In this document: positions 3,612-60,643 of the stretch, one piece after another
Position numbering within the stretch: position 1 is the stretch's first letter
Layout of the letters: each line of letters starts with the position of its first letter
NCBI GenBank assembly: GCA_037134695.1
Contig: JBAXLU010000001.1
Location: forward strand, 11,551 to 75,550
Direction: 5' to 3'
Length of the DNA: 64,000 nt
Origin: Candidatus Nomurabacteria bacterium
Lineage (GTDB): Bacteria > Patescibacteriota > Minisyncoccia > Phycocordibacterales > UBA5272
The notes under the pieces: generated by a model
What the model saw: the letters and a program-made list of their open reading frames with translations, nothing else
Databases searched by the model: none
What the model was told of the DNA's origin: nothing
Translations under genes and position numbers: made by a program

Positions 3612-4267
3612 TGTATAATTCCACAACTATGATGCAAATCACCACAGCGCCACGCGCACCAAAAGAAACAAAGAAAGATGGTTTTATTCCAGCTGTATAT
3701 TACGGCGCACAACAGGCCTCAACTCCTATTTTTATAGATTTTATTGAATTTAAGAAGGTTTTAGCAGACGCTGGTGAATCAAGTTCAATTACTCTTATTA
3801 CAGAGCATGGTAACGAAGTTGCTATGATTCAAGATGTTCAGCTTGATCCAGTAAAGGGTAACGCTGTGCATGCAGACTTTTACATTCTTAAAAAGGGACA
3901 AAAAGTACACGTTAAAACCCCAATTATTTTTGTTGGAGAGTCACAAGCTGTTAAAGAAGGTGGTGTGCTTGTAAAAGTAATGTATGAACTTTCTGTTGAA
4001 GGAGATCCAACTAAACTTCCTCATGAGTTCTCTGTAGATATTTCTGCTCTTGTTAATAAAGATAGTGTTATTCATGTAAAGGATTTGATTCTTCCAGCAG
4101 GTGTTGAGCTTTATCATGTAGATCCTCTAGATGCTGTTGTTTCTATTTCAGTTGCTCAGGAAGAAATTGCGATAGATGCTCCAGTTGCTGATTTATCAAC
4201 TATTGAAGTTGAAGCTAAAGGTAAGAAAGAAGGCGACGCGGAAGAAGGTGGAACAGACGCAGAATAA
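3611..4267 (+). CDS. rplY: 50S ribosomal protein L25 / general stress protein Ctc (long form)
   Basis: 218-aa ORF; N-terminus APRAPKETKKDGFIPAVYYG is typical L25/Ctc; acidic tail partly encoded by an ACGCAGAA/ACGCGGAAG repeat unit (4236-4275). Confidence 0.8.
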   Translation: MYNSTTMMQITTAPRAPKETKKDGFIPAVYYGAQQASTPIFIDFIEFKKVLADAGESSSITLITEHGNEVAMIQDVQLDPVKGNAVHADFYILKKGQKVHVKTPIIFVGESQAVKEGGVLVKVMYELSVEGDPTKLPHEFSVDISALVNKDSVIHVKDLILPAGVELYHVDPLDAVVSISVAQEEIAIDAPVADLSTIEVEAKGKKEGDAEEGGTDAE

Positions 4268-4293
4268 CGCGGAAAAATTCAAAAAAATACTAA

Positions 4294-5879: not shown

Positions 5880-6086
5880 ATGAAAGCAGATATTCACCCA
5901 ACATATTATACAAACGCTACAGCAACTTGTGCTTGTGGTGCCACTTATAGTGTTGGTTCAACACAAGAAAAAATAGAAGTTGAAATCTGTCAGGCTTGCC
6001 ATCCATTCTATACAGGACAGGATAAAGTACTTGACTCTACCGGCCGCGTTGATAAGTTTAAGAAGAGAATGGCTGCTAAAAAGTAG
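5880..6086 (+). CDS. rpmE: 50S ribosomal protein L31
   Basis: 68-aa ORF MKADIHPTYY...C..C....CHPFYTG, canonical L31. Confidence 0.9.
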   Translation: MKADIHPTYYTNATATCACGATYSVGSTQEKIEVEICQACHPFYTGQDKVLDSTGRVDKFKKRMAAKK

Positions 6087-6257
6087 TCCATCTACTTTGT
6101 TGTGGAGCCTCTTTCGCTCGTCATCGTACTATTAAGTACGTCTCCTCGCTCACTTCTCCACGCCTCGTATCTGAACCATTTTTAGCAGCCATTATGGCTT
6201 GCTTTTTGGTATACTACAAAGCATCTAACTTTCAACTTTACGAACTTTATAAACTTT

Positions 6258-9969: not shown

Positions 9970-10362
9970 ATGCTTATCTATATTTTATTTATAAGTGGAC
10001 TAGTATCAGCTCTTGGGGCTGTTTCTATTGTTCTACTTCAATTTTATAAGATTAAGAGTGGACAAATAGTCGTCGATGAAAGTTTTGATGGACCAAAGCA
10101 AGTATATGCAACTTTAATTGTTATACTTAGATATTTTTTGCGCCGCACAGTTTACTTTCGTAAATTTGTTATGCAATATGCACTACATATAATCGTTAGA
10201 GGTATGTTTTATTTAGATAAAGGTTTTTCAAAACTTTACGCTGTATCTCGCGATATGTTTGTAAAAAATGCAGTTAGAAACAGAGGCACTGTCCCACATT
10301 TTTGGAATCACTTGAAGGTTTATAAGCAGGAGATGGATAAGGAAAAAGAGAATAAAGACTAG
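9970..10362 (+). CDS. hypothetical protein
   Basis: 130-aa ORF, one N-terminal TM helix, no motif recognised. Confidence 0.3.
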   Translation: MLIYILFISGLVSALGAVSIVLLQFYKIKSGQIVVDESFDGPKQVYATLIVILRYFLRRTVYFRKFVMQYALHIIVRGMFYLDKGFSKLYAVSRDMFVKNAVRNRGTVPHFWNHLKVYKQEMDKEKENKD

Positions 10363-10489
10363 AATATATTATATAATATTTAGTCCAAAAAAGATGACAA
10401 ATAACCTATTTTATGATAGGATATTGTAACGTTATTCTAGATATTTGACTGTTGTCTTATATCTGTTATCTAACGTATTTTTCTTTTTT

Positions 10490-10604: not shown

Positions 10605-10744
10605 AATCAGCCTGCGCTGATTTGTGGCAGATTCGAATGGGCGCAGTGATGTTTCGCTAGCAAGCGAAACCACGAGCGGCGGGCTGCGAGTCTTGTGAGC
10701 GACGGCGAACAAGAACTTGTAGCCGAATCTGAGAAGCGGCTCCA
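10605..10744 (+). repeat. tRNA-adjacent structured element, copy A (ends with a 21-nt exact copy of the tRNA-Thr 3' end)
   Basis: ~80% identical to 53211-53342; hairpin AATCAGC-CTGC-GCTGATT, conserved core GGCAGATTCGAATGGGC..CTAGCAAG..AAACCACGAGCGGCGGGCTGCGAGT, second hairpin TCTTGT..ACAAGA, then CTTGTAGCC + CGAATCTGAGAAGCGGCTCCA (= 10545-10565). Confidence 0.55.
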
Positions 10745-12890: not shown

Positions 12891-13754
12891 ATGGCCGTTC
12901 ATAAATTTCATTTTTATGATAAAATGAAATTTATGAACGGCCATCTCCACCCCATTACTCTCGCAGTTGCACGTATTTCCGACATCTTTTCCAAGATGGG
13001 TTTTGATACAGTTGATGGTCCAGAGCTAGAAGATGAATGGCACAATTTTGATGCACTAAACGTTCCAGCTGATCACCCAGCGAGAGATATGCAGGATACC
13101 TTCTTCATCAGAATGGGTACTGATGAAGCGCAGACTAACGCAGAACGGACGCAGAAGGTCGCAGAAGGAATACAAAGGACAGGCATTAATAAATTCGGTG
13201 AACCCATGGGCTATGTTCTTCGTACACATACTAGTAACATGCAGATCCGCACTATGGAAAAATATACAGCGGAAGGTAAAGAATTGCCTATTGCTATTTG
13301 TTGCCCGGGAAAAGTTTTTCGCAATGAAGCAACAGACGCAACCCACGAAGCACAATTTCATCAAATAGAAATGTTATATGTTGCAAAAGATGCATCACTA
13401 GCTATGATGATAGGTGTAATTGAAAAGTTTTTCTCAGAATTTTTTGGAACAGATTTAGTGATTAGACTTCGTTCAAGTTATTTTCCATTCGTTGAGCCGG
13501 GCAATGAAGTGGATATGCAATGTTTTAAGTGTAAAGGTAGTGGTTGTAATATTTGTAAACAAACTGGTTGGATAGAAATAGGTGGTGCTGGAATGGTGCA
13601 TCCAAAAGTATTAGAAGCAGGAGGAATTAATCCAGCTGATTATCGTGGTTTTGCTTTTGGTTGTGGTATAGACAGAATGGTAATGCTTAAATATGGAATT
13701 GAAGATGTTCGTCTTTTGTATAATGGAGATTTAAGAGTGGTCAATCAATTTTAA
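12891..13754 (+). CDS. pheS: phenylalanine--tRNA ligase alpha subunit
   Basis: 287-aa ORF; class II motifs (LRTHTS, FRNEATDATHEAQFHQIEM, GAGMVHPKVL, GFAFGCGIDRM); alternative start at 12927; carries an in-frame short-repeat insertion at 13127-13185. Confidence 0.85.
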   Translation: MAVHKFHFYDKMKFMNGHLHPITLAVARISDIFSKMGFDTVDGPELEDEWHNFDALNVPADHPARDMQDTFFIRMGTDEAQTNAERTQKVAEGIQRTGINKFGEPMGYVLRTHTSNMQIRTMEKYTAEGKELPIAICCPGKVFRNEATDATHEAQFHQIEMLYVAKDASLAMMIGVIEKFFSEFFGTDLVIRLRSSYFPFVEPGNEVDMQCFKCKGSGCNICKQTGWIEIGGAGMVHPKVLEAGGINPADYRGFAFGCGIDRMVMLKYGIEDVRLLYNGDLRVVNQF

Positions 13755-13756
13755 TT

Positions 13757-15721
13757 ATGAAATTTTCTAAAGCGTGGTTACAAGATTATATTGTCGAGAC
13801 ACTTCCAGAAGATGGTGTGATTTCAGAGGCTTTTAATAAAAAATCTTTTGAAGTTGAAGAAACGCGGACTATCGCGGAACAAACGCAGAATGACGCGGAA
13901 GGAATACAAACTGACGATTATAAGGATACGGTTTTTGATATTAAAGTTTTACCAAATAGAGCCCACGATGCATTAGGCCACAGGGGTATGGCCCGTGAAC
14001 TTTGTGCAGATTTTGGTTTTACATTTAAGGAAGATGAGAGAATAAATAAAAACGAATCTTTTTTTGACTCAACTATTCCGGCTCCAGCAGTTTCAATAGA
14101 AAATGGTGAAAAATGTACTCGTTTTATGGGAATAAGAATAGATGGTGTAATGGTCACAGAAAGCCCAAAATGGCTCAGAGAAAGGCTTGAATCTATAGGA
14201 CAGCGAAGTATTAACAATATTGTTGATATCACTAACTATGTGCAGTTTTCGCTCAATAAGCCTATGCATGCTTATGACACAAGGAGTATTAAGGGTATTT
14301 TGGGTGCGCGCGTAGCGCGCACTGGTGAGATGCTAGTTACTTTGGATGAAAAGTCACTTAATCTTGATACTCAAACTCTTGTAATTGTAGATGATGAAAA
14401 AGTTCTAGGGCTAGCTGGAATAAAAGGAGGAAAATTTAGTGGTATACAATCTGATACAACAAGTGTTATTTTAGAGAGTGCAAATTTCGAACCAACCCTT
14501 ATCCGCAAGACTTCACAGAAATATGATTTAAGAACAGATGCTTCAAAACGTTTTGAAAATGGAATTGCAAACTCTTTAATTGAAGAAGGTTTATATATGA
14601 CCGCAAATCTAATTAAAGAATTATGTGCTGATGCGAAGGTTTCACTTGTAACAGATATTTATCCAAAGGTAGATGAGATATTTTCATTATCTGTTTCACT
14701 TGATGAAATTAATGCAATATTAGGTACAAAATATTCTAGGGAAGAAGTAGAAGAAACATTTAAAAAACTTTTATTTAAATTTACGACAAAAGGAAATGTT
14801 TATACAGTTGAAGTTCCATCTGAAAGACTAGATATACGAATTAAAGAAGATGTCACAGAAGAAGTGGGACGTATTATTGGATATGACAAACTTATACCAA
14901 CTCTTCCTGTTTTAAATCGCGTAGGTCTTCCTCATAAGAGAATGTTTTATGAAAATAAAATAAGAGAAATTTTAGTGAGAAATGGTTTCTCTGAAGTCAT
15001 GACTTATACTTTTGGTGATCAGGGTGAGGTGGAACTTGTAAAAGGATTGGCTCTAGATAAAGAAAAACTTCGTGACAGTTTAGGTAATGGTATATTAAAT
15101 TCTCTATCATTAAATCTTTACAACGCACCACTTCTCGGTGAAAAAACAATTAAGATTTTTGAAATTGGGAATGTTTTTGGAAAAGATACAGAGACAAGAC
15201 ATTTATCTCTTGCAATTGATGACGGTGCGAAGAAAAGTAATTTCACAGATGGAGTCGATATGATATTAGTTGAAATTAAACGCACTTTAGAATTGCCATC
15301 ACTTGAATGTACAACAGTTTCAACTAAACCTTATGTTATTGAAATTGATTTTGATACAATGATTGCATCACTTCCGGAGCCTACAAATTATGAAGCGCCT
15401 ACATTCACGTCTTTACCTTTCGTTAATTACAAATCAGTCTCGTCTTATCCGTTTATTGCCCGTGATATTGCTATGTGGGTACCTGCTGTTACAACATGGG
15501 AGAGTATCAATAATCTTTGTGCTGAAGTACGGAATACTCTTGTTACTCGTGTTGATCTTTTTGATACTTTCACGAAAGAAATAGAGGGCATAAGAAAAAC
15601 TTCTTTCGCATTTCGCTTAGTTTTTCAAAGTTATGAAAAGACATTAACAGATGAAGAGGTGAATGAAATGATGGAAGCTTATTATAAAGTTTTTAAGGAA
15701 AAAGGTTACGAGATTCGCTAA
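13757..15721 (+). CDS. pheT: phenylalanine--tRNA ligase beta subunit (short form lacking N-terminal OB domain)
   Basis: 654-aa ORF directly after pheS; B3/B4 and B5 and C-terminal anticodon-binding-like regions recognisable; in-frame short-repeat insertion at 13866-13912. Confidence 0.8.
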   Translation: MKFSKAWLQDYIVETLPEDGVISEAFNKKSFEVEETRTIAEQTQNDAEGIQTDDYKDTVFDIKVLPNRAHDALGHRGMARELCADFGFTFKEDERINKNESFFDSTIPAPAVSIENGEKCTRFMGIRIDGVMVTESPKWLRERLESIGQRSINNIVDITNYVQFSLNKPMHAYDTRSIKGILGARVARTGEMLVTLDEKSLNLDTQTLVIVDDEKVLGLAGIKGGKFSGIQSDTTSVILESANFEPTLIRKTSQKYDLRTDASKRFENGIANSLIEEGLYMTANLIKELCADAKVSLVTDIYPKVDEIFSLSVSLDEINAILGTKYSREEVEETFKKLLFKFTTKGNVYTVEVPSERLDIRIKEDVTEEVGRIIGYDKLIPTLPVLNRVGLPHKRMFYENKIREILVRNGFSEVMTYTFGDQGEVELVKGLALDKEKLRDSLGNGILNSLSLNLYNAPLLGEKTIKIFEIGNVFGKDTETRHLSLAIDDGAKKSNFTDGVDMILVEIKRTLELPSLECTTVSTKPYVIEIDFDTMIASLPEPTNYEAPTFTSLPFVNYKSVSSYPFIARDIAMWVPAVTTWESINNLCAEVRNTLVTRVDLFDTFTKEIEGIRKTSFAFRLVFQSYEKTLTDEEVNEMMEAYYKVFKEKGYEIR

Positions 15722-17008: not shown

Positions 17009-18463
17009 ATGAAAAAAGAAATTTATTTGCCATATTTTGAAAATAAGAAAGTAACAGTAATGGGACTTGGTTTACTTGGTCGTGGATTAGGAGATACAGA
17101 ATTTCTTGCAAAAAATGGAGCAGAGTTAATTGTTACAGATAAAAAAACAGAGGCAGAATTAATTAATTCTGTGTCGATACTTTCAAAATATGAAAATATA
17201 ATTTATCATCTCGGTGAGCATAAAGTAGAAGATTTTGAAAACAGAGATTTTATTTTAAAAGCAGCAGGAGTTGCATTAGATAATCAATACATTGCTAGCG
17301 CGCGTGAAAAAGACATTCCTATTTATATGTCAGCATCACTTCTTTCTGATATCGTGATGAAGAATTTACCGAATGTAAAAATAATCGGTGTTACAGGTAC
17401 TCGTGGTAAGAGTACAACTACACAGTTAATTGCCCATATTTTAAAATCTGCGGGCATGAAGGTTCATCTTGGTGGGAATATTCGTGGAGTGGCTAATCTT
17501 CCATTGTTAGATGAAATAGAAGATGGAGATTATTTGGTTTTGGAATTAGATTCGTGGCAGTTGCAAGGATTTGGAGATATGAAAATTAGTCCTCATATTG
17601 CAGTCTTTACATCTTTCTTGGACGATCACATGAATTATTATAAGAATGATAAGGAATTATATTTTAATGATAAGGCAAATATTTATCGTAATCAAAAAGA
17701 ATTGGATATTTTAATAGTTAGCCCTGAAGCAGAAGAAGAAATAAAAAAAAGAGATCCTAATCAAGAGATGGTTATCGCTGTTAATAGCCATATTGAAACT
17801 AGTTTAATTGGTGAACATAATCAGATAGCCGCTAAATTAGCTTATGAAGTAGCTTCTCAATGTGGATTAGACGATACGACTATTCGTGAAGCCATAGCTA
17901 GTTTTAAGGCGGTGGAGGGGAGATTGGAGGATATGGGGTTCTATAAAACAAATCTTATTAATTTGGATGAAATTCAAGGAAAAGACAATGTTTCGAGTGA
18001 GGTGTACAAATCGTACAGTGAACGAGAAACAGAAGTTTTTGACGAAGAAGTTCGCCAAATTAATAAGATTTGTAAAGGAATAAGAGTATTTAATGACAAC
18101 AATGGCACAACTGGAGATGCAACCATAAAAGCATTGGAATCAATCAAGACAACTTTTAACATAAAACCTATCTTAATCGTTGGTGGTAAGGATAAAGGTT
18201 TACCAATAGAGAATCTTGAAAAATCAATTAAAGAAAATACTAAAGCCGTAATTTATTTATCAGGTACCGGAACCGACAGATTGAATCTTCTAAAAGAATA
18301 TGAGTTTGAAAAATTATCTGATTGTGTAGACAAAGCTTTTGCTCTAGCAGATGAGGGGGATATTATTTTATTTTCTCCAGCATTTGCATCTTTTTCAAAG
18401 TATTTTAATAATGAATATGAAAAGAATGATGAGTTTGTGAGAGCGGTAGTGAAATATAAATAG
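17009..18463 (+). CDS. murD: UDP-N-acetylmuramoylalanine--D-glutamate ligase (Mur ligase family)
   Basis: 484-aa ORF; N-terminal Rossmann VTVMGLGLLGRGLG...VTD and P-loop IGVTGTRGKSTTT. Confidence 0.65.
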   Translation: MKKEIYLPYFENKKVTVMGLGLLGRGLGDTEFLAKNGAELIVTDKKTEAELINSVSILSKYENIIYHLGEHKVEDFENRDFILKAAGVALDNQYIASAREKDIPIYMSASLLSDIVMKNLPNVKIIGVTGTRGKSTTTQLIAHILKSAGMKVHLGGNIRGVANLPLLDEIEDGDYLVLELDSWQLQGFGDMKISPHIAVFTSFLDDHMNYYKNDKELYFNDKANIYRNQKELDILIVSPEAEEEIKKRDPNQEMVIAVNSHIETSLIGEHNQIAAKLAYEVASQCGLDDTTIREAIASFKAVEGRLEDMGFYKTNLINLDEIQGKDNVSSEVYKSYSERETEVFDEEVRQINKICKGIRVFNDNNGTTGDATIKALESIKTTFNIKPILIVGGKDKGLPIENLEKSIKENTKAVIYLSGTGTDRLNLLKEYEFEKLSDCVDKAFALADEGDIILFSPAFASFSKYFNNEYEKNDEFVRAVVKYK

Positions 18464-18503: not shown

Positions 18504-18779
18504 ATGAATACAACAATGTTAATAAAAACAAATAAAGAACTTAAGAATGAAGCCTCACGCATTGCGAAAGAAATGGGAGTGCCTTTAACCACCGTGGTAA
18601 ATGCTTTTCTTGCACAATTCGTACGTGATAAGAGATTAAGTATTTCTATCGAACCAATGCCAAACAAAGCAAAACTTGCGCTATGGGAATCAATTAGTAA
18701 GGAATCTGATAAGGACATGAAGAACACAAAGAGTTATACGAACGCTGACGAATTGATTGCAGATTTAAAATTGATATGA
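18504..18779 (+). CDS. DinJ/RelB-family antitoxin
   Basis: 91-aa ORF; ribbon-helix-helix-like N-terminus (KELKNEASRIAKEMGVPLTTVVNAFL); 4-nt overlap with the downstream toxin gene. Confidence 0.6.
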   Translation: MNTTMLIKTNKELKNEASRIAKEMGVPLTTVVNAFLAQFVRDKRLSISIEPMPNKAKLALWESISKESDKDMKNTKSYTNADELIADLKLI

Positions 18780-19033
18780 TCGTAATTCGCACGAAGCACT
18801 TTTCGAAGGCTGTAACAAAGTTGCCAGCTACCGTAAAACGCGCACTAGCGGAGAGACTTAAGCTTTTTATGGAGGATCCATTTAATCGACTACTTAACAA
18901 TCACGCACTCAACGGTAATATGCAGACTTATCGAAGTATTAATATTACAGGAGATTACCGCCTTATTTATGAATTGTATGACACAGACATGGCACGTTTA
19001 ATCGACATTGATACACATAGTAATTTGTATTAG
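18776..19033 (+). CDS. YafQ/RelE-family mRNA-interferase toxin
   Basis: 85-aa ORF; LNNHALNGNMQTYRSINITGDYRLIYELYDTDMARLIDIDTHSNLY resembles YafQ/RelE. Confidence 0.65.
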   Translation: MIVIRTKHFSKAVTKLPATVKRALAERLKLFMEDPFNRLLNNHALNGNMQTYRSINITGDYRLIYELYDTDMARLIDIDTHSNLY

Positions 19034-19580: not shown

Positions 19581-21752
<2,172 letters not shown>

Positions 21753-21756: not shown

Positions 21757-21790
21757 AAAAATCACCGCATATGCGGTGATTTTTGTTTTT
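21757..21790. terminator. bidirectional terminator between gyrB and a hemerythrin gene
   Basis: perfect palindrome AAAATCACCGCAT|ATGCGGTGATTTT flanked by A/T runs; a near-copy sits at 22885-22921. Confidence 0.6.
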
Positions 21791-22214
21791 ACTTCAAGCC
21801 GTGCTCATTAAAAAATAGAGAGTACTTTTTATCCATTGAAAGAATATGTTCAAATAGCCAGTTTCCAGCAAATAAACCACTTTCTTTTAGTGTGTCTTTT
21901 AAATCATAATTTCTATTACTTACCTTAGAAATTAATTCAGCAGATTTTACTCTAAAGTGATCATGTGATTTTATATGATCTTCCATATGTGGAACATTGT
22001 ATTTTTCAAAATACTCTTCTTCTGTACCTAAATGATACTTCGCATAATCACCCAATCTATTGATGGCGAGTACCGCTTCTGCTTGTGTAAATTTTATTTT
22101 TCCTTCAGATAATTCTAATAAATTGTTACATAAATTAAAAAACTCTTTATGTTGATTGTCTATTATTTCAATTCCAACAGAGTATTCTTCTGTCCAAATA
22201 AGTTCTTCGTACAT
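21789..22214 (-). CDS. bacteriohemerythrin-like protein, paralog 1
   Basis: 141-aa ORF; WTEEYSVGIEIIDNQHKEFF plus downstream H..E, HF, H..D metal ligands; ~85% identical to 22921-23346. Confidence 0.7.
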   Translation of the reverse strand: MYEELIWTEEYSVGIEIIDNQHKEFFNLCNNLLELSEGKIKFTQAEAVLAINRLGDYAKYHLGTEEEYFEKYNVPHMEDHIKSHDHFRVKSAELISKVSNRNYDLKDTLKESGLFAGNWLFEHILSMDKKYSLFFNEHGLK

Positions 22215-22884: not shown

Positions 22885-22921
22885 AATAAAAATCACCGCA
22901 TATACGGTGATTTTTATTTTT
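22885..22921. terminator. bidirectional terminator (near-copy of 21757-21790)
   Basis: AAAAATCACCG-CATATA-CGGTGATTTTTATTTTTT. Confidence 0.5.
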
Positions 22922-23346
22922 TACTTCAAACCTTGTTCATTAAAAAACGGAGAGTATTTTTTATCCATAGACATAATATGTTCAAATAGCCAGTTTCCAG
23001 CAAATAAACCACTTTCCTTGAGTGTATCTTTTAAATCGTAATCTTTATTACTTACTTTAGCAATTAATTCAGAAGATTTTATTTTAAAATGATTATGTGC
23101 TTTTATATGATCTTCCATATTTTGTACATTATATTTTTCAAAATATTCCTCTTCTGTTCCTAAATGATATTTTGCGTAATCACCTAATCTGTTAATAGCA
23201 AGGACAGCTTCTGCTTGTGTAAATTTTGTTTTTCCTTCAGCTAATTCTAATAAATTGTTACATAAATTAAAAAACTCTTTATGTTGATTATCTATTATTT
23301 CAATACCAACAGAATATTCTTCTGTCCAAATAAGTTCATCGTACAT
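22921..23346 (-). CDS. bacteriohemerythrin-like protein, paralog 2
   Basis: 141-aa ORF, same motifs as paralog 1; part of a ~520-bp direct duplication. Confidence 0.7.
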   Translation of the reverse strand: MYDELIWTEEYSVGIEIIDNQHKEFFNLCNNLLELAEGKTKFTQAEAVLAINRLGDYAKYHLGTEEEYFEKYNVQNMEDHIKAHNHFKIKSSELIAKVSNKDYDLKDTLKESGLFAGNWLFEHIMSMDKKYSPFFNEQGLK

Positions 23347-30953: not shown

Positions 30954-31604
30954 ATGAAATTAAATCATCCATATTGTGATTATGTTTCCAAATTAAATGA
31001 CGAAAATGATGTTGATAAAATTTATCACGATAATCATTATGGTGTGAGAATAGAAGATGACAATGAATTATTTGGACGTTTGATTATGGAAATAAACCAA
31101 GCGGGACTTTCTTGGAGAACTATTTTAATGAAAGAGAGTGGGTTTAGAAAAGCTTATAATAATTTTAATATTAAAAAAGTTGCAAAATATAGTGAAAAAG
31201 ATTTTCTAAGGTTAATGAATGATGAAAAAATAATTCGTAATAAATTAAAAATAAATGCAGCAATATATAATGCACAAGAAATAATAAAAATTCAAAAAGA
31301 ATTTGGAAGTTTTAGAAAATGGTTGGATATAAAGGATAAGGAGATTCAGTCTAGTATTTGTGTCATTCCCACGAAGGTGGGAATCCAGTTTCGCACTCTT
31401 GCATTTAGAATACTGGATCCCCGCATTCGCGAGGATGACAATACAAAAGATAATAGAGATGAAATTAAAAACATGTGGTTAAAACTTTTTAAAAAACATT
31501 TTAAATTTGTTGGTGGAGAAATAGTTGGAGAGTTTTTATTAAGTCTTGATATATTATCTGGCAATCACGACAAGAATTGCATAGTGAAAAAGAAAAACAA
31601 ATAA
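30954..31604 (+). CDS. tag: DNA-3-methyladenine glycosylase I with in-frame palindromic-repeat insertion
   Basis: 216-aa ORF; HDNHYGVRIEDDNELFGRLIMEINQAGLSWRTIL and KFVGGEIVGEFL match Tag; ~25 extra residues (ICVIPTKVGIQFRTLAF...) encoded by palindromic repeat copy C1 at 31360-31389. Confidence 0.75.
   Translation: MKLNHPYCDYVSKLNDENDVDKIYHDNHYGVRIEDDNELFGRLIMEINQAGLSWRTILMKESGFRKAYNNFNIKKVAKYSEKDFLRLMNDEKIIRNKLKINAAIYNAQEIIKIQKEFGSFRKWLDIKDKEIQSSICVIPTKVGIQFRTLAFRILDPRIREDDNTKDNRDEIKNMWLKLFKKHFKFVGGEIVGEFLLSLDILSGNHDKNCIVKKKNK
31360..31389. repeat. GTGTCATTCCCnCGAAGGnGGGAATCCAGT palindromic repeat, copy C1 (inside tag)
   Basis: hairpin ATTCCCAC-GAAG-GTGGGAAT; related copies at 36602-36635, 62602-62635, 62986-63016 and 63022-63055. 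Confidence 0.6.
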
Positions 31605-31831
31605 AACTTTTAGCATAAAAATTGCAGCTTTTGACCTGTATTTTGTATCGCTAAAGGCTACAAGCTACAGGCTGCTAACTACCCCAGCACTTCAACCCAC
31701 CTATAGATTTTGTAAAGATTTTTCTAGAATCGGGCATATTTTTCAAGACCTTTTATGTCCCCAGTTTTGTGGTTGCAGATAAGGTGAAGTGGGGCAATAA
31801 TAAGGTACCGGGGGACACATATTTATTTTGG

Positions 31832-31893
31832 CTAACGAGGAGCTAAATAGAAAAGTAATCTTTTATATTTAGTCCGAGTGACGACATAAAAAG
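31832..31893. repeat. left copy of 62-bp inverted repeat bracketing the nrdDG-iscSU block
   Basis: CTAACGAGGAGCTAAATAGAAAAGTAATCTTTTATATTTAGTCCGAGTGACGACATAAAAAG; reverse complement of 37699-37760 with 2 mismatches. Confidence 0.7.
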
Positions 31894-32003
31894 TTTCAAC
31901 ATGACGTAGATTGCTATACGCCATTATGAACAAAGTAGTTTCCTAAAAAATAACTCGTCAGCTTGCTGCGAGGAAACTTTATTAACGTTATTCTTGTACA
32001 ATT

Positions 32004-36056: not shown

Positions 36057-36486
36057 AATTACTCCTACAACATGTGATGTAACAGATTGGCTCTACAGTG
36101 ATATTGTAAAAGATCATTTTTTCAATCCGAGAAATATTTTACTTGATGATAAAGATTATGTAGCTGACGGTTGTGGGGTTGCTGGTAGCCCACTTTGTGG
36201 GGACATGATGGTTGTTTGGGTAAATGTGAATAAAGAAACAAATAAAATTACAGAATGTAAGTGGCGTACATTTGGTTGTGCTTCTGCTATTGCTTCCACT
36301 TCTATGATGTCAGTTATAGCAACAGAAAATGGTGGTATGACAATTGCTACTGCTAAACGTATGACACCAGAGTCAATCATAGATAGATTGGGTGGGCTTC
36401 CTGATAGGAAATATCACTGTTCTGTTTTGGGACATGAGGCTCTACGTAAAGCAGTTGAAGACTACGAAGGAACATTACATACTTGA
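36049..36486 (+). CDS. iscU: Fe-S cluster assembly scaffold (IscU/NifU N-terminal domain)
   Basis: 145-aa ORF with the three scaffold cysteines (GSPLCGDMM; FGCASAIASTSM; HCSVLGHEAL). Confidence 0.8.
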   Translation: MNKITPTTCDVTDWLYSDIVKDHFFNPRNILLDDKDYVADGCGVAGSPLCGDMMVVWVNVNKETNKITECKWRTFGCASAIASTSMMSVIATENGGMTIATAKRMTPESIIDRLGGLPDRKYHCSVLGHEALRKAVEDYEGTLHT

Positions 36487-36590
36487 CGACCTTCTTCGTT
36501 AAAGTGAATATTTTTTCGTCACTGTACTATTAAGTACACCTCCTCAAAAATCTTCACTTTGCCTCGAATCTCATTCAAGTCTGTAAGTTC
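36487..36590. repeat. 3'-UTR repeat family E, copy after iscU
   Basis: conserved CGTCACTGTACTATTAAGTACACCTCCTC and CCTCGAATCTCATTC blocks inside an AAAGTGAA/TTCACTTT inverted repeat; relatives at 6070-6192, 42617-42735, 47095-47215, 49032-49172, 60495-60625. Confidence 0.55.
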
Positions 36591-36649
36591 CGAAGACCCA
36601 GGTGTCATTCCCGCGAAGGCGGGAATCCAGTGTTGGCATTAAATAAATC

Positions 36650-37503: not shown

Positions 37504-37698
37504 TTAATTGTATTGGAATATATACTTGTATTTAAACAAACCCCATCTTTCTTTTTAAAAAGCGCATCGGAGGGCGGGTAGCCGAGATAGAGTGCCTTTT
37601 CTAGCAAGAAAAGGACACGGCTTTTTAAAATGAAAGATAAAACAAGAAAAGAAATTTGAATAAAGGTTTCTCGTAGTAATCTACGAGGCATTTAAACC

Positions 37699-37760
37699 TT
37701 TTTATGTCGTCACTCGGACTAAATATAAAAGATTACTTTTCTATTTAGGTCCTCGCTAGA
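37699..37760. repeat. right (inverted) copy of the 62-bp repeat bracketing the nrdDG-iscSU block
   Basis: reverse complement matches 31832-31893 at 60/62 positions. Confidence 0.7.
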
Positions 37761-37784
37761 CAAAATAAAATAAAGTATTAATTT

Positions 37785-42616: not shown

Positions 42617-42735
42617 ATTATCCATCTACTTTGTCGCTACGAAATTTTTCTTCGTCAACGTAGACCTACTACGTCTCCTAGAAAAATTCCTAAGCTTCGC
42701 GTAGCTGGAGCAATTTCTGACTTTCTTTATAGATA
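42617..42735. repeat. 3'-UTR repeat family E, copy after typA
   Basis: CCATCTACTTTGTCGCTACGAAATTTTTCTTCGTCAACGTAGACCTACTACGTCTCCTAG; its reverse complement is found at 47095-47215. Confidence 0.55.
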
Positions 42736-42766
42736 TTTTTTGAAAATTTTTTGTTATACTTATTAA

Positions 42767-43504: not shown

Positions 43505-43559
43505 AATATTATGAAATTGCTGTAAATATAGACAAATTAAAATATGTTAAACTTAAGTC

Positions 43560-44702: not shown

Positions 44703-44731
44703 TTTAAGAAATAATAGGTTATACTATCTTA

Positions 44732-45238: not shown

Positions 45239-45384
45239 TCTAAACTGGATAATCTGTAAAAGAAAATGCCACCCGTTAGGGTGGCATTCTCATGTGTTCT
45301 TCATCTATAAGCCGAGTTCTGTATTTGTATAGACATTTATCTTGTCTCTACATTGCTGTAAAGATCTAGCGACACTCTCCCAAC

Positions 45385-47094: not shown

Positions 47095-47215
47095 TATTGT
47101 ATTAGAAACGTAGTTGTTTGGATGTAATACGCGAAGCACGGAGTTTTTGGAAGAAGACGTAGTAGACCTACGGCGACTGACAAAAACTCCGTGCGACAAA
47201 GTAGGACGCCAAACA
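47095..47215. repeat. 3'-UTR repeat family E, inverted copy upstream of lepA
   Basis: GAAGAAGACGTAGTAGACCTACGGCGACTGACAAAAACTCC is the reverse complement of the core in the 42617 and 60495 copies. Confidence 0.5.
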
Positions 47216-47229
47216 GGTACGTTTACCTT

Positions 47230-49032
47230 ATGGAGATTAGAAACTTTTCAATCATTGCGCATATCGATCACGGAAAATCTACCCTAGCGGATAGGTTACT
47301 TGAAGTTACCTCAACTGTAGACAAGCGTCACATGAAAGAGCAAGTTTTAGACTCAATGGAACTTGAACGTGAGCGTGGTATTACAATTAAAATGACACCC
47401 GTTCGTATGAATTGGAAAGGGCATGACGGCAAGGATTATATTTTGAACTTGATCGACACTCCAGGACATATTGATTTTTCCTATGAAGTATCACGTGCTC
47501 TTCAAGCTGTTGAAGGAACTTTACTTTTGGTTGATTCGACACAGGGCATACAAGCACAAACTCTTACAACTCTTGAGATGGCGAGAAATTCTGGATTAAC
47601 AATTATTCCAGTTATCACAAAAATAGATAGTCCAATTGCGAGACCGGACGACGTGAAAGAAGAAATAATGGAATTACTTAATTGTGAGGAATCTGAGATT
47701 TTAGCGGTATCTGGAAAAACAGGTGAAGGTGTAAAAGAATTGATTGAAGAAATCATTAAAAAAGTACCAGCTCCAAAAAGTGAATTCGTTGACGCTAATG
47801 GTAAAGAAACTCGTGCACTTATTTTTGACTTTGAATATAGTAATCACATGGGTGTTATTTTGTATGTGCGAGTACTTGATGGAAACATAAAAGCAGGCGA
47901 CACACTTTTATTTATTCAATCAAAAGCAAAATTTATTATTCGTGAAGTTGGTACATTTTCTCCAGAGAAGCGTGAGACTGGAGTTGTACAAGCAGGTGAG
48001 ATTGGTTATATAGTCACTGGAATTAAAGAGCCAGGTATCGCTCGTGTTGGAGATACTGTTACAACATTTTCAAAACCGCTTCCTGCTTTTCCTGGTTATG
48101 CTGAACCGGTACCAATTGTTTTTGCATCTATTTATCCTGAGTCACAAGATGAATTTAATGATTTAAGATCTTCACTTTCAAAATTAAAATTATCTGACTC
48201 ATCTCTTACTTTTGAAGAAGAATCTTCCGGCGCGCTTGGTCGTGGTTTTAGATGTGGCTTTCTTGGAATGCTTCACTTGGAAATTATTACAGAGAGACTA
48301 AGACGCGAATTTGATCAAGAGCTTGTAGTGACTACACCATCTATTACTTATGAAGTGACATTAAAAAATGGTGAGGTAGAAATGGTTTATACGCCTATAC
48401 ATTTTCCTGATCATGGTATGTATACATCAGTTCGTGAACCATGGATTATTTTGACCATTATCACCCCACATGATTATGTAAGCCCACTTATGCAACTCTT
48501 TCCACCACATGAGGCTACAGTGTCAGATTTAGCCGATTGGGGGCATGATAGAGTCAAGATAACCTTAAATATGCCTCTTCGTGAGCTTATGCGAAATTTC
48601 TTTAATGAAGTAAAATCTGCCTCAAGTGGCTATGCTTCTTTGGTTTATGAAAAAGGGGAAATGCGACCAGCTGATGTTACAAGATTAGACGTTTATGTAG
48701 CAGAAGAAAGAGTGGCTGCTTTTTCTCGTGTGATACCAGAATACAGAGCGCGTGAGGAAAGTGAGGAAGTTGTAGAGAAACTTGAAAAGATTTTACCAAC
48801 AGAAATGTTCCGTGTAAAAATACAAGCTTACGTTCATGGAAAAATTGTTTCTTCTCGTTCTATTGCGCCAATGAAAAAAGATGTGACTGGGTATATGTAT
48901 GGAGGAGATATTACTCGAAAGATGAAATTACGTGAAAAGCAAAAAAGAGGGAAGGATAGAATGGAGAGAGAGGGGAAGGTACACATATCTCATGATACAT
49001 TCCTCTCCATGATGAAACCAGGAGAGAAGTAG
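47230..49032 (+). CDS. lepA: elongation factor 4
   Basis: ORF 47191-49032; conserved start MEIRNFSIIAHIDHGKSTL at 47230; DTPGH, NKID, LepA-specific C-terminal domain. Confidence 0.9.
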   Translation: MEIRNFSIIAHIDHGKSTLADRLLEVTSTVDKRHMKEQVLDSMELERERGITIKMTPVRMNWKGHDGKDYILNLIDTPGHIDFSYEVSRALQAVEGTLLLVDSTQGIQAQTLTTLEMARNSGLTIIPVITKIDSPIARPDDVKEEIMELLNCEESEILAVSGKTGEGVKELIEEIIKKVPAPKSEFVDANGKETRALIFDFEYSNHMGVILYVRVLDGNIKAGDTLLFIQSKAKFIIREVGTFSPEKRETGVVQAGEIGYIVTGIKEPGIARVGDTVTTFSKPLPAFPGYAEPVPIVFASIYPESQDEFNDLRSSLSKLKLSDSSLTFEEESSGALGRGFRCGFLGMLHLEIITERLRREFDQELVVTTPSITYEVTLKNGEVEMVYTPIHFPDHGMYTSVREPWIILTIITPHDYVSPLMQLFPPHEATVSDLADWGHDRVKITLNMPLRELMRNFFNEVKSASSGYASLVYEKGEMRPADVTRLDVYVAEERVAAFSRVIPEYRAREESEEVVEKLEKILPTEMFRVKIQAYVHGKIVSSRSIAPMKKDVTGYMYGGDITRKMKLREKQKRGKDRMEREGKVHISHDTFLSMMKPGEK

Positions 49033-49172
49033 TTCCAAAAATGCTTCATCTACTTTGTTACGGGTCCCTGCTCGCTCGTCAATGTACTATTAAGTACTTC
49101 TTCTTTCAAAATTAACTTCGTCCAAGACGTGAACCTACTGGTTCAGCCTCGTATCTAAAGCATTTTTGGAAC
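49032..49172. repeat. 3'-UTR repeat family E, copy after lepA, bounded by 15-bp inverted repeats
   Basis: GTTCCAAAAATGCTT...CATCTACTTTGTT...CTCGCTCGTCAATGTACTATTAAGTAC...CCTCGTATCTAAAGCATTTTTGGAAC. Confidence 0.6.
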
Positions 49173-49283
49173 TACTTAAGTTCGAGATCTGAATAATATT
49201 AAAGCTATTATTATTCACCTAATATCTGAATCATTTTTAGTCCGATGGTAAGCCTAAAATATTTAGTGATATACTTTTAATAT

Positions 49284-56176: not shown

Positions 56177-56303
56177 CGTATTATATAAGTCAGAAATTAT
56201 TTTAGATACAAGGCACGGAGAAACATTTTTAGGAGACGTACGAGGGAGTACGTTGAGTAAAAATGAGAGGCTCCGTAACGCAGTAGATGAAACAATTTAT
56301 GAC

Positions 56304-56861
56304 TTATATACTTTTAACTTTAAGTTTGGTTTGTCTCGCCTTATCAACTTTCGGTAATCTGATAATGAGTAATCCATGCTTTTCAACAGCTTCAGCTTCT
56401 TCAATTTCAACTTCATGTGGAAGTAAAATTGAACGAGTGAAACTTCCCCAGTAGAGCTCTTTGTAGAAATAGTCATCATGAGTAACTTGGGTGTTTCCAT
56501 CACGACGTCCTTTGATAGTAACCATATCACGAGTGATAGATAGGTGAAGGTCTTCTGGTTTTACACCTGCAACCATAGCCTCGATAATTATCTCTGTATT
56601 AGTTTGGTAGACATCAACAGATAGTTCTCCTTCTTCCATATCAGCTTCTTCTTCATCGTCATAAGTTATATGGGTAGCTGTCTTTGGTATAGACATAGCA
56701 CTGCTTTTAGCTTTGGCAGGGACATGTTTTATTGGAAGCTCTTCCTCTTCTCCACCCTCTTGTTCAAATGGCATGATTGGTTCATCCTCATCGTCAACAC
56801 TAATTGAACCTGCAAGTCTTTCAAAAAATGATTTTTTTTCTTTAAGCATAATAATTACCAA
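56304..56861 (-). CDS. Hsp20/alpha-crystallin small heat-shock protein
   Basis: 185-aa ORF; acidic N-terminal extension; alpha-crystallin domain; C-terminal LLIIRLPKV. Confidence 0.75.
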   Translation of the reverse strand: MVIIMLKEKKSFFERLAGSISVDDEDEPIMPFEQEGGEEEELPIKHVPAKAKSSAMSIPKTATHITYDDEEEADMEEGELSVDVYQTNTEIIIEAMVAGVKPEDLHLSITRDMVTIKGRRDGNTQVTHDDYFYKELYWGSFTRSILLPHEVEIEEAEAVEKHGLLIIRLPKVDKARQTKLKVKSI

Positions 56862-60287: not shown

Positions 60288-60643
60288 TCGCATTTGTGAA
60301 CTTAGAGAAAGCATCCACTCCCATGGATGCTTTTTCTTTTTTTTTATTCCAAAACTATTTCATTTACTGCGTTAGGAAAAGTTTTTACTCCTGGTTGTAC
60401 GTCTTGTACATCTTAGTCGTAAAAACTTTCTCTGCCTTGTATCTAAAACAGTTTTGGAACAAAAATATTGATTAAAAAACTATTCCATCCCAGCCAGAGG
60501 CTGGTCAGCCTCTGGCTGATACTTTTTGTCGTTACGAAATTTTTGTCAGTCAATGTAGGTCTACTACATCTCCATCTAAAAATTTCTAGACTCCTCGTAT
60601 CTGAAACAATTTTTTGCCAAAGAGGCTTCTTCACCAAAGATGA

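What the first reader, a model, noticed from the sequence alone, without database searches (positions are those of the whole stretch)
6070..6192. Family of 100-140-nt elements placed immediately after stop codons of translation genes (rpmE, iscU, typA, lepA and others)
Seen directly: six copies in 64 kb, at 6070-6192, 36487-36590, 42617-42735, 47095-47215 (inverted), 49032-49172 and 60495-60625. They share blocks CATCTACTTTGT, CTCGCTCGTCA-N-GTACTATTAAGTAC (or the variant GTAG(A/G)(C/T)CTACTAC) and CCTCGTATCTGAA. Individual copies are closed by terminal inverted repeats that differ in sequence between copies but preserve pairing. The rpmE copy has ATGGCTGCTAAAAA/TTTTTAGCAGCCAT, whose left arm is the last codons of rpmE. 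The lepA copy has GTTCCAAAAATGCTT/AAGCATTTTTGGAAC. A conserved interior inside covarying outer stems suggests a structured 3'-UTR RNA, or alternatively a MITE-like element with target-derived ends. Their strong association with highly expressed translation genes is notable.
Basis: seen in the sequence. Interest (0 to 1): 0.6.

Follow-up and report, generated by a model that had tools for sequence, protein, structure and literature searches.

The report
Mobile palindromic repeats abutting stop codons
The six look-alike sequences are real copies (nine in all) of a roughly 115-130 bp mobile hairpin-forming DNA repeat. It settles right at the stop codons of all kinds of genes, and occasionally in frame inside genes, in tiny-genome Patescibacteria and some other bacteria. 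It resembles known REP/RPE-type selfish repeats but has an unusually strict polarity.

Summary
A covariance model finds nine copies in the window, and more than 90 non-redundant copies in other genomes and metagenomes.

The element is a rod-like imperfect palindrome. Its bubbles are conserved and its stems vary with strong covariation. No Rfam family matches.

It is mobile. Relatives with about 90% DNA identity have empty sites after iscU, after hsp20 and between murJ and lepA. One window copy is a 129-nt in-frame insert in murD that is absent from orthologues 86-88% identical. In-frame inserts also occur in purB and trpA elsewhere.

There is no special link to translation genes. Copies also follow hsp20, sodA, secY, rpoC, gyrA, gyrB and tkt.

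The polarity is striking:
- 53 of 53 copies at ORF 3' ends are in sense orientation, with a TAA or TAG stop at or inside the outer stem.
- All in-ORF and 5'-leader copies are antisense.

The right arm often carries an inverted copy of the gene's native last codons.

An mRNA-structure role is not supported. Sense-strand stems show no G·U excess, and the complementary strand folds better in 89 of 89 copies.

Best reading: a REP/RPE-like structure-defined mobile element. Its mobilising enzyme is unknown.

The parts
6069..6192 (+). Copy 1, after rpmE (L31). The outer stem includes the last five codons and the TAG stop of rpmE. A small terminator-like hairpin (AGCAGCCAT-T-ATGGCTTGCT followed by TTTTT) follows and shares the right arm.
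   Evidence: (103.6 bits); an orthologous copy lies after rpmE in L042
17948..18073 (-). Copy 2, antisense and in frame inside murD (ORF 17009-18463). It is a 126-nt palindrome with 19-bp perfect arms (ACAAATCTTATTAATTTGG / CCAAATTAATAAGATTTGT). It is flanked by AAA on both sides and adds 43 aa (residues ~312-354) between the central and C-terminal Mur ligase domains.
   Evidence: gap against PDB 3lk7; orthologues P0003/4/5 lack it; DNA alignment with empty site L013
36476..36586 (+). Copy 3, at the 3' end of iscU (NifU_N). It replaces about the last 8 native codons and supplies the TGA stop (36484-36486). A copy of a second repeat family follows at 36584-36635. Together they split an ancestral iscU/next-gene overlap.
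   Evidence: 89.6 bits; empty in L121 and L123
42604..42727 (+). Copy 4, after typA/bipA. The native end GRKS-TAA forms the left arm (AAGAAAGTCATAAATT). The right arm AATTTCTGACTTTCTT is its inverted copy.
   Evidence: 83 bits; orthologous copy in L121; empty in L123, L124, L126, which have the same C-terminus
47106..47224 (-). Copy 5, antisense, in the murJ-lepA spacer. Its 5' end lies 17 nt before the lepA ATG (47230).
   Evidence: 68 bits; window 47113-47229 is absent from L121; the spacers in L123, L124 and L126 are too short to hold it
49027..49177 (+). Copy 6, after lepA. The outer stem AAGTAGTTCCAAAAATGCTT includes the last codon and the TAG stop. The right half carries an extra ~30-nt insertion that is also seen in L008.
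   Evidence: 36.5 bits; empty in L121, L123, L124, L126, which share the PGEK* end
49209..49238 (+). Isolated right-end fragment (CACCTAATATCTGAATCATTTTT) just downstream of copy 6.
   Evidence: (family D4)
56182..56310 (-). Copy 7, directly after the TAA stop of the minus-strand hsp20 gene (56304-56861) and upstream of its terminator (56136-56175). The right arm CTTATATA is the inverted copy of the native last codons.
   Evidence: 79.7 bits; empty in L121, L124, L126, which share the KSI* end
60341..60465 (+). Copy 8, in a convergent spacer just after a terminator-like hairpin (60308-60345).
   Evidence: (66.4 bits)
60505..60616 (+). Copy 9, in tandem with copy 8. Its left outer arm is replaced by an unrelated hairpin (60495-60514). 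It lies 28 nt from the stop of the minus-strand dNK-like gene.
   Evidence: (55.7 bits)

Best explanation
This is a family of non-coding, mobile, imperfect-palindrome DNA repeats of the REP/RPE kind. They are MITE-like only in the broad sense.

Architecture (shown). Each copy is about 115-130 bp and reads, from 5' to 3':
- variable outer arms;
- an A4 tract;
- CATCTAC;
- a TTYGTTG bubble;
- two variable helices;
- a CGTCA-tagged apical hairpin, CGTAC-N6-GTACG;
- a YCTCC bubble;
- the returning helices;
- CCTCG;
- GTATCTG;
- a T4 tract;
- variable outer arms.

Behaviour (shown):
- Copies are gained and lost between genomes that are about 90% identical.
- Copies sit with their 5' end against a gene boundary. 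They are in sense orientation at the TAA/TAG stop of ORFs and after tRNAs. They are divergent when next to gene starts.
- Some copies are tolerated in frame inside genes, in the orientation whose mRNA strand is purine-rich and encodes hydrophilic loops.
- The right arm commonly contains an inverted copy of the native sequence on the left, that is, the last codons plus the stop.

Mechanism (inferred):
- The unit that moves is defined by the hairpin itself, not by fixed termini. It is probably a single-stranded DNA stem-loop recognised through its conserved bubbles and apical hairpin by a trans-acting enzyme not encoded in this window.
- After joining of the 5' end to the target, or after later breaks, fold-back priming or template switching copies the upstream flank. 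This extends the palindrome outward and can add layers that are carried to the next site.
- Any effect on the host mRNA, such as 3' stabilisation or termination, would be secondary and is untested.
For: - Repeat family and structure. R1 finds nine copies in the window and 82 in 81 metagenome loci. In the MAFFT seed alignment 76% of cells are paired against 29-43% in slid controls, and 28/37 pairs change on both sides. In the larger alignment the figures are 82% against 28-47%, and 35/37 pairs.
- Mobility, murD. The insert is absent from orthologues 86-88% identical and has clean boundaries.
- Mobility, purB. The insert is absent from an 87%-identical orthologue.
- Mobility, other sites. The iscU, murJ-lepA, lepA 3' and hsp20 sites are empty in L121 and in more distant relatives. 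The converse case is an element in L004 where the window is empty. L121 has a private copy.
- Polarity at ORF ends. Copies abutting stops are sense 51-53 and antisense 0.
- Polarity at tRNAs. The 5' end faces the tRNA in 7/7 adjacent copies.
- Polarity inside ORFs. 3/3 copies are antisense.
- Stop codon choice. TAA/TAG in 51/53. In high-GC loci it is 18/19 although TGA makes up about 42% of background stops, P about 4e-4.
- Target-derived arms. Native C-termini are retained at typA, lepA and hsp20, and their inverted copies lie in the right arm. The rpmE and ychF arms are also coding sequence.
- Not tuned for the mRNA strand. G·U 131 against A·C 164. The complementary strand is more stable in 89/89 copies.
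- Precedent. REP families lie less than 20 bp from ORF 3' ends, donate stop codons and occur in frame inside genes. RPE-4/-6 are CGTC-tagged REPs (PMC3733652).
Against: - No transposase, RAYT, recombinase or reverse transcriptase was found among about 50 window ORFs scanned.
- No donor copy nearly identical to a recent insertion lies in the window.
- No consistent target-site duplication exists; only AAA/AAA at murD.
- Strict sense orientation at stop codons, a conserved U·G pair (58/79) and bubbles conserved from 34% to about 60% GC genomes across phyla would also fit a selected function.
- The fold-back model is inference only. It does not by itself explain why the joining point is the stop codon.
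- The larger alignment is fitted to the model, and the metagenome copies were ascertained with a pattern in the apical hairpin. Conservation there is therefore overstated.
Confidence: 0.7

Rival explanations
1. The element is a selected cis-acting RNA module of 3' UTRs: a large terminator, a 3'-end stabiliser or a protein-binding platform. It happens to spread by recombination. The sense RNA hairpin starting at the stop codon is the functional entity.
For: - 53/53 stop-abutting copies are in sense orientation, with the hairpin base at or over the stop codon.
- A4 and T4 tracts flank the stem as in bidirectional intrinsic terminators.
- A U·G pair and the bubbles are conserved across phyla.
- Orthologous copies are retained after rpmE (window and L042) and after typA (window and L121).
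- Copies lie between the stop and the pre-existing terminator, so they are transcribed.
Against: - There is no G·U excess on the sense strand: 131 against 164 A·C, and 73 against 164 without the one fixed pair.
- The sense RNA is the weaker folder in 89/89 copies, -31.8 against -44.4 kcal/mol.
- Presence or absence differs between close relatives at the same genes, which already have ordinary terminators.
- Copies occur inside ORFs and in 5' leaders in the opposite orientation.
- There is no Rfam match.
Confidence: 0.25
2. The elements are attC-like, structure-specific recombination sites. A single-stranded bottom-strand hairpin would be recognised by a tyrosine recombinase, marking places where gene cassettes are exchanged.
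For: - It is an imperfect palindrome of attC-like size, with conserved unpaired features and variable covarying stems.
- It lies directly 3' of ORFs in a fixed orientation.
- The strand complementary to the ORF folds better.
- In the window, 1.97 kb and 1.35 kb of extra genes lie right after the typA and lepA copies, relative to L121.
Against: - There are no RYYYAAC / GTTRRRY cores at the ends (inspection).
- The preceding genes are syntenic housekeeping genes, not cassettes.
- In-frame copies occur inside murD, purB and trpA.
- No integrase was found in the window ORFs scanned.
- The 1.97-kb insert is bounded by GTTATACT repeats, not by elements.
Confidence: 0.07
3. It is a classical MITE. 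That is, an internally deleted insertion sequence with fixed terminal inverted repeats, moved by the transposase of a parent IS and leaving fixed-length direct target duplications.
For: - The size, copy number, palindromic shape and filled/empty polymorphism fit.
- AAA flanks the murD insert on both sides.
Against: - The ends are the most variable part and the centre is the most conserved.
- The outer arms are partly copied from the target in inverted orientation.
- No common direct duplication is seen at typA, lepA, hsp20 or rpmE.
- No parent IS or transposase was found in the window or in the loci examined.
- Random-orientation insertion would not give 53:0.
Confidence: 0.08

Closest known systems
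CGTC-tagged REP repeats (Di Nocera, De Gregorio & Rocco 2013, PMC3733652), which include Rickettsia RPE-4/RPE-6
   Same: - A conserved unpaired CGTC(A) motif lies 5' of a short hairpin.
- Copies lie within about 20 nt of ORF 3' ends and can donate stop codons.
- Some copies sit in frame inside genes.
- No dedicated transposase is known.
- The family occurs in Alphaproteobacteria and in scattered other phyla.
   Different: - Here the tagged hairpin is shorter: a 5-6 bp stem and a 6-nt loop, against 8-9 bp and 4-5 nt.
- The tail is YCTCC, not CCA.
- The hairpin is single, not a head-to-head dimer.
- It forms the apex of a 115-130 bp rod with further conserved bubbles.
- Strict polarity and inverted target capture are not described for REPs.
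Rickettsia palindromic elements (RPE-1 and relatives; my recollection of Ogata et al. 2000/2002)
   Same: - They are 100-150 bp palindromic repeats in a reduced genome.
- They are inserted in frame in essential protein genes, where they add hydrophilic loops.
- They also occur in non-coding DNA.
- Their mobilising mechanism is unknown.
   Different: - The host phyla differ.
- Sequence relationship was not tested.
- Most copies here are at stop codons with fixed orientation rather than inside ORFs.
- Copies here show recent turnover between close relatives.
ERIC/IRU, Correia/NEMIS and similar transcribed bacterial MITEs (review PMC2229807; my knowledge)
   Same: - They are roughly 100-170 bp imperfect palindromes in transcribed intergenic DNA.
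- They fold as long hairpins.
- They can alter the stability of the flanking mRNA.
   Different: - Those families occur in both orientations.
- They have conserved termini.
- Correia elements have TA target duplications.
- None is reported to copy the upstream flank in inverted form.
Integron attC sites
   Same: - They are structure-defined imperfect palindromes directly 3' of ORFs in one orientation.
- The strand complementary to the ORF is the better-folding (active) strand.
   Different: - There are no R''/R' core sites here.
- There are no cassette arrays and no integrase here.
- The element inserts inside genes.

Membership tests
CGTC-tagged REP superfamily (PMC3733652) | Unpaired CGTC motif at one end of the hairpin | tested here: met
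   CGTCA lies 2 nt 5' of the apical hairpin and is unpaired in the model. It is present in 4 of the 9 window copies; the others read CAGTCA (2), CGTTCA, ACTCA and CTCCTG. Metagenome copies were selected with this motif, so their conservation is not independent.
CGTC-tagged REP superfamily (PMC3733652) | Stem of 8-9 bp beginning with A/T pairs, loop of 4-5 nt, and a 3-nt CCA-like tail | tested here: not met
   The stem is CGTAC/GTACG (5 bp; 6 with a closing pair). The loop is 6 nt. The following motif is YCTCC (criteria, Table 1).
CGTC-tagged REP superfamily (PMC3733652) | Location close to ORF 3' ends, stop-codon donation, and intragenic in-frame units | tested here: met
   (iscU stop supplied by the element)
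Rickettsia palindromic elements | 100-150 bp palindromic repeat found in frame within protein-coding genes | tested here: met
   murD, purB, trpA
Rickettsia palindromic elements | Sequence similarity to the RPE-1 to RPE-8 consensus sequences | not tested
Classical MITE | Conserved terminal inverted repeats matching a parent IS | tested here: not met
   The outer arms differ between copies and are partly target-derived. No transposase was found among the window ORFs. A genome-wide search was not possible.
Classical MITE | Direct target-site duplication of fixed length | tested here: inconclusive
   AAA/AAA at murD and a possible CATTA(C/A)AT at iscU. None at typA, lepA, hsp20 or rpmE.
Integron attC | R'' (RYYYAAC) and R' (GTTRRRY) core sites at the two ends | tested here: not met
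   Inspection of the ends of about 90 copies. The criteria are from my own knowledge.
Integron attC | Cassette array with a neighbouring integron integrase | tested here: not met
   The flanking genes are syntenic housekeeping genes. No integrase domain appears in the Pfam scans of the window.
Any described RNA family (Rfam 15) | Match to a covariance model at or near the gathering score | tested here: not met
   Only tRNAs and RNase P were found in the window, and nothing overlapped any copy at E<=1.
Intrinsic terminator | GC-rich hairpin immediately followed by a free U-tract that ends transcripts | not testable with these tools
   A T4-5 tract follows the stem, but it pairs with the upstream A tract. 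The hsp20 and rpmE copies are followed by separate canonical terminators. 3'-end mapping would be needed.

The most novel reading that the evidence does not exclude
The family represents a so-far undescribed way of moving DNA. A hairpin whose boundaries are set by base pairing, not by fixed ends, is joined by its 5' end at the boundaries of transcription units, typically exactly after a TAA/TAG stop codon. It then extends itself by fold-back synthesis and captures an inverted copy of the gene's last codons. It would be driven by an unidentified enzyme shared by Patescibacteria and some Proteobacteria. It would remodel the C-termini, operon junctions and surface loops of essential proteins in minimal genomes.
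Probability: 0.2. Interest if true: 0.85.

Novelty: new variant of a known kind. Interest (0 to 1): 0.6.

Why it matters
- **Unexpected turnover in a minimal genome.** Patescibacteria (CPR) genomes are regarded as minimal and streamlined. Yet this 64-kb window carries nine copies of one repeat family and several further families. At least four insertions have occurred since divergence from a relative with about 90% DNA identity.
- **Effects on essential genes.** Insertions rewrite the iscU C-terminus, split an overlapping gene pair, and add 36-43-residue loops to MurD, PurB and TrpA.
- **An unexplained rule.** The polarity (5' end against a gene boundary, sense at TAA/TAG stops, 53:0) and the inverted capture of the upstream flank are not explained by any transposition mechanism I know. 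The family could therefore lead to the long-missing mobilisation mechanism of CGTC-type REP and RPE-like repeats.
- **Practical consequences.** Such repeats cause mis-annotated protein lengths and can break metagenome assemblies. They also provide strain-level markers.

Tried and rejected
- **Rfam.** I ran gathering and E-value modes on low-GC and high-GC copies. Nothing matched.
- **RNAalifold on raw MAFFT alignments.** It recovered only the apical hairpin because the variable stems were out of register. I replaced it with a hand-drawn structure that was checked against controls.
- **Stop codons as the cause of orientation.** I tested whether stop codons in the sense strand explain why in-ORF copies are antisense. 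They do not. The sense strand has an open frame in 61/89 copies and the antisense strand in 40/89. The purine-rich strand encoding hydrophilic peptides is my replacement explanation, and it is an inference.
- **Paralogous 141-aa ORFs (21789-22214, 22921-23346).** I suspected IS200-like TnpA. They are hemerythrins.
- **Window-specific ORFs next to the typA and lepA copies.** There are no Pfam or NCBIfam hits that suggest an enzyme.
- **attC cores.** I looked for them by eye and found none.
- **Phage carriage.** There is no exact match to the core pattern in IMG/VR.
- **Replication-linked orientation.** GC skew is positive on the + strand throughout, except in the last 8 kb where it is about zero. 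The minus-strand hsp20 copy follows its gene, not the replichore. This rests on one local case plus opposite-oriented pairs in L005, L018 and L036.
- **Literature.** I searched for a prior description in Patescibacteria and found nothing in the held library.
Full report

Yes.

The shared blocks are far more frequent than in dinucleotide-preserving shuffles:
- GTACTATTAAGTAC occurs 3 times against 0.01 expected.
- CCTCGTATCTGAA with up to 2 mismatches occurs 6 times against 0.88 expected.
- CATCTACTTTGT occurs 3 times exactly.

Each copy folds into one long hairpin, with z-scores of -2.6 to -7.5. The quoted arms of the rpmE and lepA copies are exact. The left arm of the rpmE copy is indeed the last five codons plus the stop of ribosomal protein L31.

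**2. How many copies, and what shape?**

I made a 14-sequence MAFFT alignment of window copies and copies from other genomes. On it I drew a rod-like structure by hand.
- 76% of cells are paired, against 29-43% when partners are slid by 1-3 columns.
- 28 of 37 pairs change on both sides.
- 0 of 500 shuffles reach the observed values.

The covariance model built from this alignment (R1) finds nine copies in the window.
- 17956-18065(-);
- 56190-56302(-);
- 60348-60458(+).

These score 36-104 bits. Ordinary terminator hairpins score below 20. The strand is unambiguous, for example 79.7 against 19 bits.

On 79 distinct metagenome copies, 82% of cells pair against 28-47% in slid controls, and 35/37 pairs covary. 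That alignment is fitted to the model, so it leans towards the structure.

The consensus anatomy, from 5' to 3', is:
- variable outer arms;
- an A4 tract;
- 5-6 variable nt;
- CATCTAC;
- a TTYGTTG bubble with a conserved U·G pair;
- two variable helices;
- CGTCA;
- an apical hairpin CGTAC-N6-GTACG with a hypervariable loop;
- YCTCC;
- the returning helices;
- CCTCG;
- GTATCTG;
- 5-6 nt;
- a T4 tract;
- the outer arms.

No Rfam family matches any copy.

**3. Where does the window come from, and how wide is the family?**

The window is from a Candidatus Nomurabacteria MAG; its LepA is 100% identical to P0121.

An exact-pattern scan of one genome per species found the element in several groups:
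- other Nomurabacteria, with at least 6 copies in UBA11704;
- unnamed MAGs;
- a contig labelled Saccharibacteria.

A looser pattern pulled 107 metagenome stretches, of which 80 were returned as loci. R1 finds 82 hits in them, nearly all full-length, with element GC from 0.32 to 0.70.

Names attached to neighbouring proteins place some loci in other taxa:
- Kaiserbacteria-like Paceibacteria (L060);
- Parcubacteria (L029);
- a 'Deltaproteobacteria' MAG (L052, L055);
- a Dongiaceae (Alphaproteobacteria) MAG (L014).

No copy was found in IMG/VR. The family therefore crosses phyla. The pattern used fixes the apical hairpin, so conservation there is partly by ascertainment.

**4. It is mobile.**

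*(a) murD.* The copy at 17948-18073 lies inside the murD ORF, on the opposite strand and in frame.
- Against Streptococcus MurD (PDB 3lk7), 45 query residues face 2.
- Among close orthologues, P0003, P0004 and P0005 (81-88% identical) are 441-443 aa and lack exactly this segment. P0001, P0002 and P0006 have it.
- The DNA alignment with the empty site (L013) shows a 129-nt insertion. It consists of a 126-nt palindrome with 19-bp perfect arms, flanked by AAA on both sides.

*(b) A close relative, L121* (LepA 99% aa, DNA 82-94% identical across the aligned blocks).
- It shares the typA copy.
- It is empty after iscU, between murJ and lepA, after lepA and after hsp20.
- It has a private copy after a 130-aa ORF.
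- More distant relatives (L123, L124, L126) are empty at all these sites, so the window copies are insertions.

*(c) The converse case.* L004 has a copy after an ORF where the syntenic window site (10362-10489) has none.

*(d) Other genomes.* The element splits the Lyase_1 domain of PurB. That insert is absent from an 87%-identical orthologue. It also splits the TrpA domain.

**5. There is no special tie to translation genes.**

In the window the adjacent genes are rpmE, iscU, typA, lepA, hsp20, murD (internal), murJ/lepA (spacer) and a convergent spacer.

Elsewhere the upstream genes include superoxide dismutase, YchF, a DUF5671 protein, RpoC, transketolase, SecY, a Mur ligase, a T4SS coupling protein, GyrB and GyrA. 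In a genome this small, most genes are housekeeping genes.

**6. The position and polarity are nevertheless extraordinary.**

I used a simple ORF caller requiring at least 100 codons.
- *ORF 3' ends.* 51-53 non-redundant copies have a co-oriented ORF whose stop codon starts between -18 and +8 nt of model position 1. No copy abuts a stop in the opposite orientation.
- *Stop and palindrome.* In half of these copies the stop lies inside the palindrome. In most of the rest the palindrome starts within a few nt of it.
- *Gene-linked orientation.* Orientation follows the gene, not the replichore. The hsp20 copy and pairs in L005, L018 and L036 flip with their genes.
- *Stop codon choice.* The stop is TAA or TAG in 51/53 copies. 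In high-GC loci it is 18/19, although TGA is about 42% of background stops (P about 4e-4).
- *tRNA genes.* Copies next to tRNA genes also turn their 5' end to the gene. Two lie 8-9 nt after a tRNA 3' end. Five are divergent and lie 8-12 nt from a tRNA 5' end.
- *Gene starts.* The murJ-lepA copy and the L001 copy are divergent, 17 and 14 nt from a start codon.
- *Inside ORFs.* All three verified in-ORF copies are antisense.

**7. Target-derived arms are real.**

At three sites the empty alleles show that the C-terminus and stop are native:
- typA ends in GRKS-TAA;
- lepA ends in PGEK-TAG or TAA;
- hsp20 ends in KSI-TAA.

In each case the element begins right after the stop. The right end of the insert contains the reverse complement of those last codons: 10/11 nt at typA, 6/6 at lepA and 7/7 at hsp20.

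The rpmE arm (14/14) and the L010 ychF arm (12 nt) are also coding sequence, but I have no empty-site control for them.

At iscU the insertion lies inside the gene end. It replaces about 8 codons, donates a TGA and separates two formerly overlapping genes.

In most copies the palindrome extends 5-11 nt beyond the conserved part, with copy-specific sequence.

The hsp20 copy carries an inner arm (GTCATAAATT...AATTTCTGAC) identical to the typA-derived arm, and an outer hsp20-derived arm. This suggests that arms accrete in layers and are carried along. The interiors of these two copies differ. The orthologous typA copies of the window and L121 differ only in the apical hairpin. Exchange between copies must therefore also occur.

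**8. Which molecule folds?**

If the mRNA hairpin were the selected object, G·U pairs should outnumber A·C mismatches on the sense strand. They do not.
- G·U is 131, of which 58 are at the single conserved pair. A·C is 164 (37 against 49 in the smaller set).
- The complement of the sense strand is the better folder in 89 of 89 copies. The means are -44.4 against -31.8 kcal/mol with RNA parameters and -20.2 against -16.4 with DNA parameters (examples).
- The bubbles are pyrimidine-rich on the sense strand and purine-rich on the other. On the purine-rich strand G·A and G·T(U) contacts are possible.

This asymmetry is a property of the shared consensus, so it is not 89 independent events. Even so, it argues against an element tuned for the 3'-UTR transcript. 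It is compatible with a folded bottom-strand DNA, or an antisense RNA, being what is recognised.

It also offers a simple reason for in-ORF copies being antisense. The purine-rich strand encodes charged, hydrophilic loops, for example DEIQGKDNVSSEVYKSYSERETEVFDEE and RRGEGDDGGVLESTLTEEQGPRNEAD. Stop-codon content does not explain it. The sense strand has an open frame in 61/89 copies and the antisense strand in 40/89.

**9. Mechanism: what is shown and what is inferred.**

*Shown:*
- copy-number dynamics;
- structure-preserving evolution;
- polarity;
- stop-codon adjacency with a TAA/TAG preference;
- inverted copies of the upstream flank;
- tolerance inside genes.

*Inferred:*
- The mobile unit is the whole stem-loop, with boundaries set by pairing.
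- It is recognised through its conserved bubbles and apical hairpin by a trans-acting enzyme. No candidate was found among about 50 window ORFs scanned with Pfam or NCBIfam.
- The palindrome grows outward by fold-back priming or intramolecular template switching, as is known for quasi-palindromes. The only viable direction is the one that keeps the coding flank.

Why the joining point is the stop codon, or more generally the edge of a transcription unit, remains unexplained. I could not separate these possibilities:
- stalling of DNA synthesis at terminators and promoters;
- microhomology with A-rich gene ends;
- selection against the convergent orientation.

**10. Comparison with known systems.**

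The behaviour matches what Di Nocera et al. (PMC3733652) describe for REP families:
- copies lie less than 20 bp from ORF 3' ends;
- copies donate stop codons;
- intragenic in-frame units occur;
- CGTC-tagged REPs, which include Rickettsia RPE-4/-6, lack a dedicated transposase.

The element has the CGTC(A) tag. It fails the stem, loop and tail definitions of those families. It is also a single tagged hairpin at the apex of a 115-130 bp rod.

It behaves like RPEs in decorating essential proteins; sequence kinship was not tested. It is not a classical MITE, because its ends are variable, its centre is conserved and it has no fixed target duplication. It is not an attC site, because it has no core sites, no cassettes and no integrase.

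I found no description of such repeats in Patescibacteria in the held literature.

**11. Verdict.**

The finding is real, and its second interpretation is essentially right. It is a new variant of the REP/RPE kind of palindromic mobile repeat. Two features deserve follow-up: a near-absolute polarity at TAA/TAG stop codons, and inverted capture of the upstream flank. The claimed link to translation genes and the 3'-UTR RNA reading are not supported.

Noticed in passing
window 31360-31410, 36584-36635, 62602-62653, 63022-63053: This is a second hairpin repeat family, GTGTCATTCCCGCGAAGGCGGGAATCCAGTG. One copy lies inside the 3-methyladenine glycosylase ORF (30954-31604). That ORF is 216 aa against 176-179 aa in relatives, and the Pfam match stops at residue 125. 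The repeat's translation (ICHPDENQDPVS...) appears as an in-frame insert in the MurD of other genomes (P0002, P0008, P0091).
   Followed up: partly
window 31822-31899 and 37692-37769: A 78-nt inverted repeat pair, 94% complementary, brackets a 5.8-kb block (nrdD, nrdG, iscS, iscU and a ferredoxin-reductase-like gene). Related ~160-nt sequences occur in L005 (6304-6465) and L007 (6331-6491).
   Followed up: no
window 4229-4287, 13121-13179, 13855-13913, 21440-21477, and complementary 45453-45496: A CGCAGAA-rich repeat occurs at the ends or starts of protein genes: the L25 C-terminus, the pheS and pheT starts, and the gyrB end. A complementary copy lies inside the RNase P RNA gene (45292-45691). 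That gene is 400 nt against a 367-position model and scores only just above the gathering score.
   Followed up: no
window 10645-10732 and 53255-53342: An 88-nt GC-rich repeat, 76% identical, lies just downstream of tRNA-Thr and tRNA-Phe. Related sequence is found in L012 and L121. No Rfam hit reaches the gathering score.
   Followed up: no
MurD orthologues P0009, P0010, P0013, P0090 (alignment A5); PurB P0243 (alignment A7): Different, unrelated short inserts occupy exactly the same protein positions as the element does in MurD and PurB. One example is KKAKTTMGSVSGSPDSQGE. These may be insertion hot spots, or permissive loops used by several repeat families.
   Followed up: no
window 42748-44720 and 49031-50376: These are window-specific DNA relative to L121. 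The first carries two ORFs (245 and 380 aa) without any Pfam or NCBIfam hit and is bounded by GTTATACT repeats. The second holds ORFs of 149 and 133 aa. Both lie immediately downstream of element copies.
   Followed up: partly
window 5805, 6228, 12853, 25571, 57022; and 8662, 9449, 22327, 40783, 50348: Two short motifs recur upstream of genes: AACTTTATAAACTTT-like and ACTATTAACCAGTAACTA-like. They may be promoter or operator elements.
   Followed up: no
window 42660-42675 versus L121 7600-7616: The orthologous typA copies are nearly identical except for the apical hairpin, GTAGACCTACTAC against GTACCATTAAGTAC. This suggests localised exchange or conversion between copies.
   Followed up: partly
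L016 647-717 and L030 442-512: There are weak twister-sister-like matches at 25-26 bits, below the gathering score of 34. They lie inside the ORF upstream of the element in two soil contigs and are probably chance.
   Followed up: no
window 18504-19033: A RelB-like antitoxin and a YafQ/RelE-like toxin pair lies directly downstream of murD.
   Followed up: no
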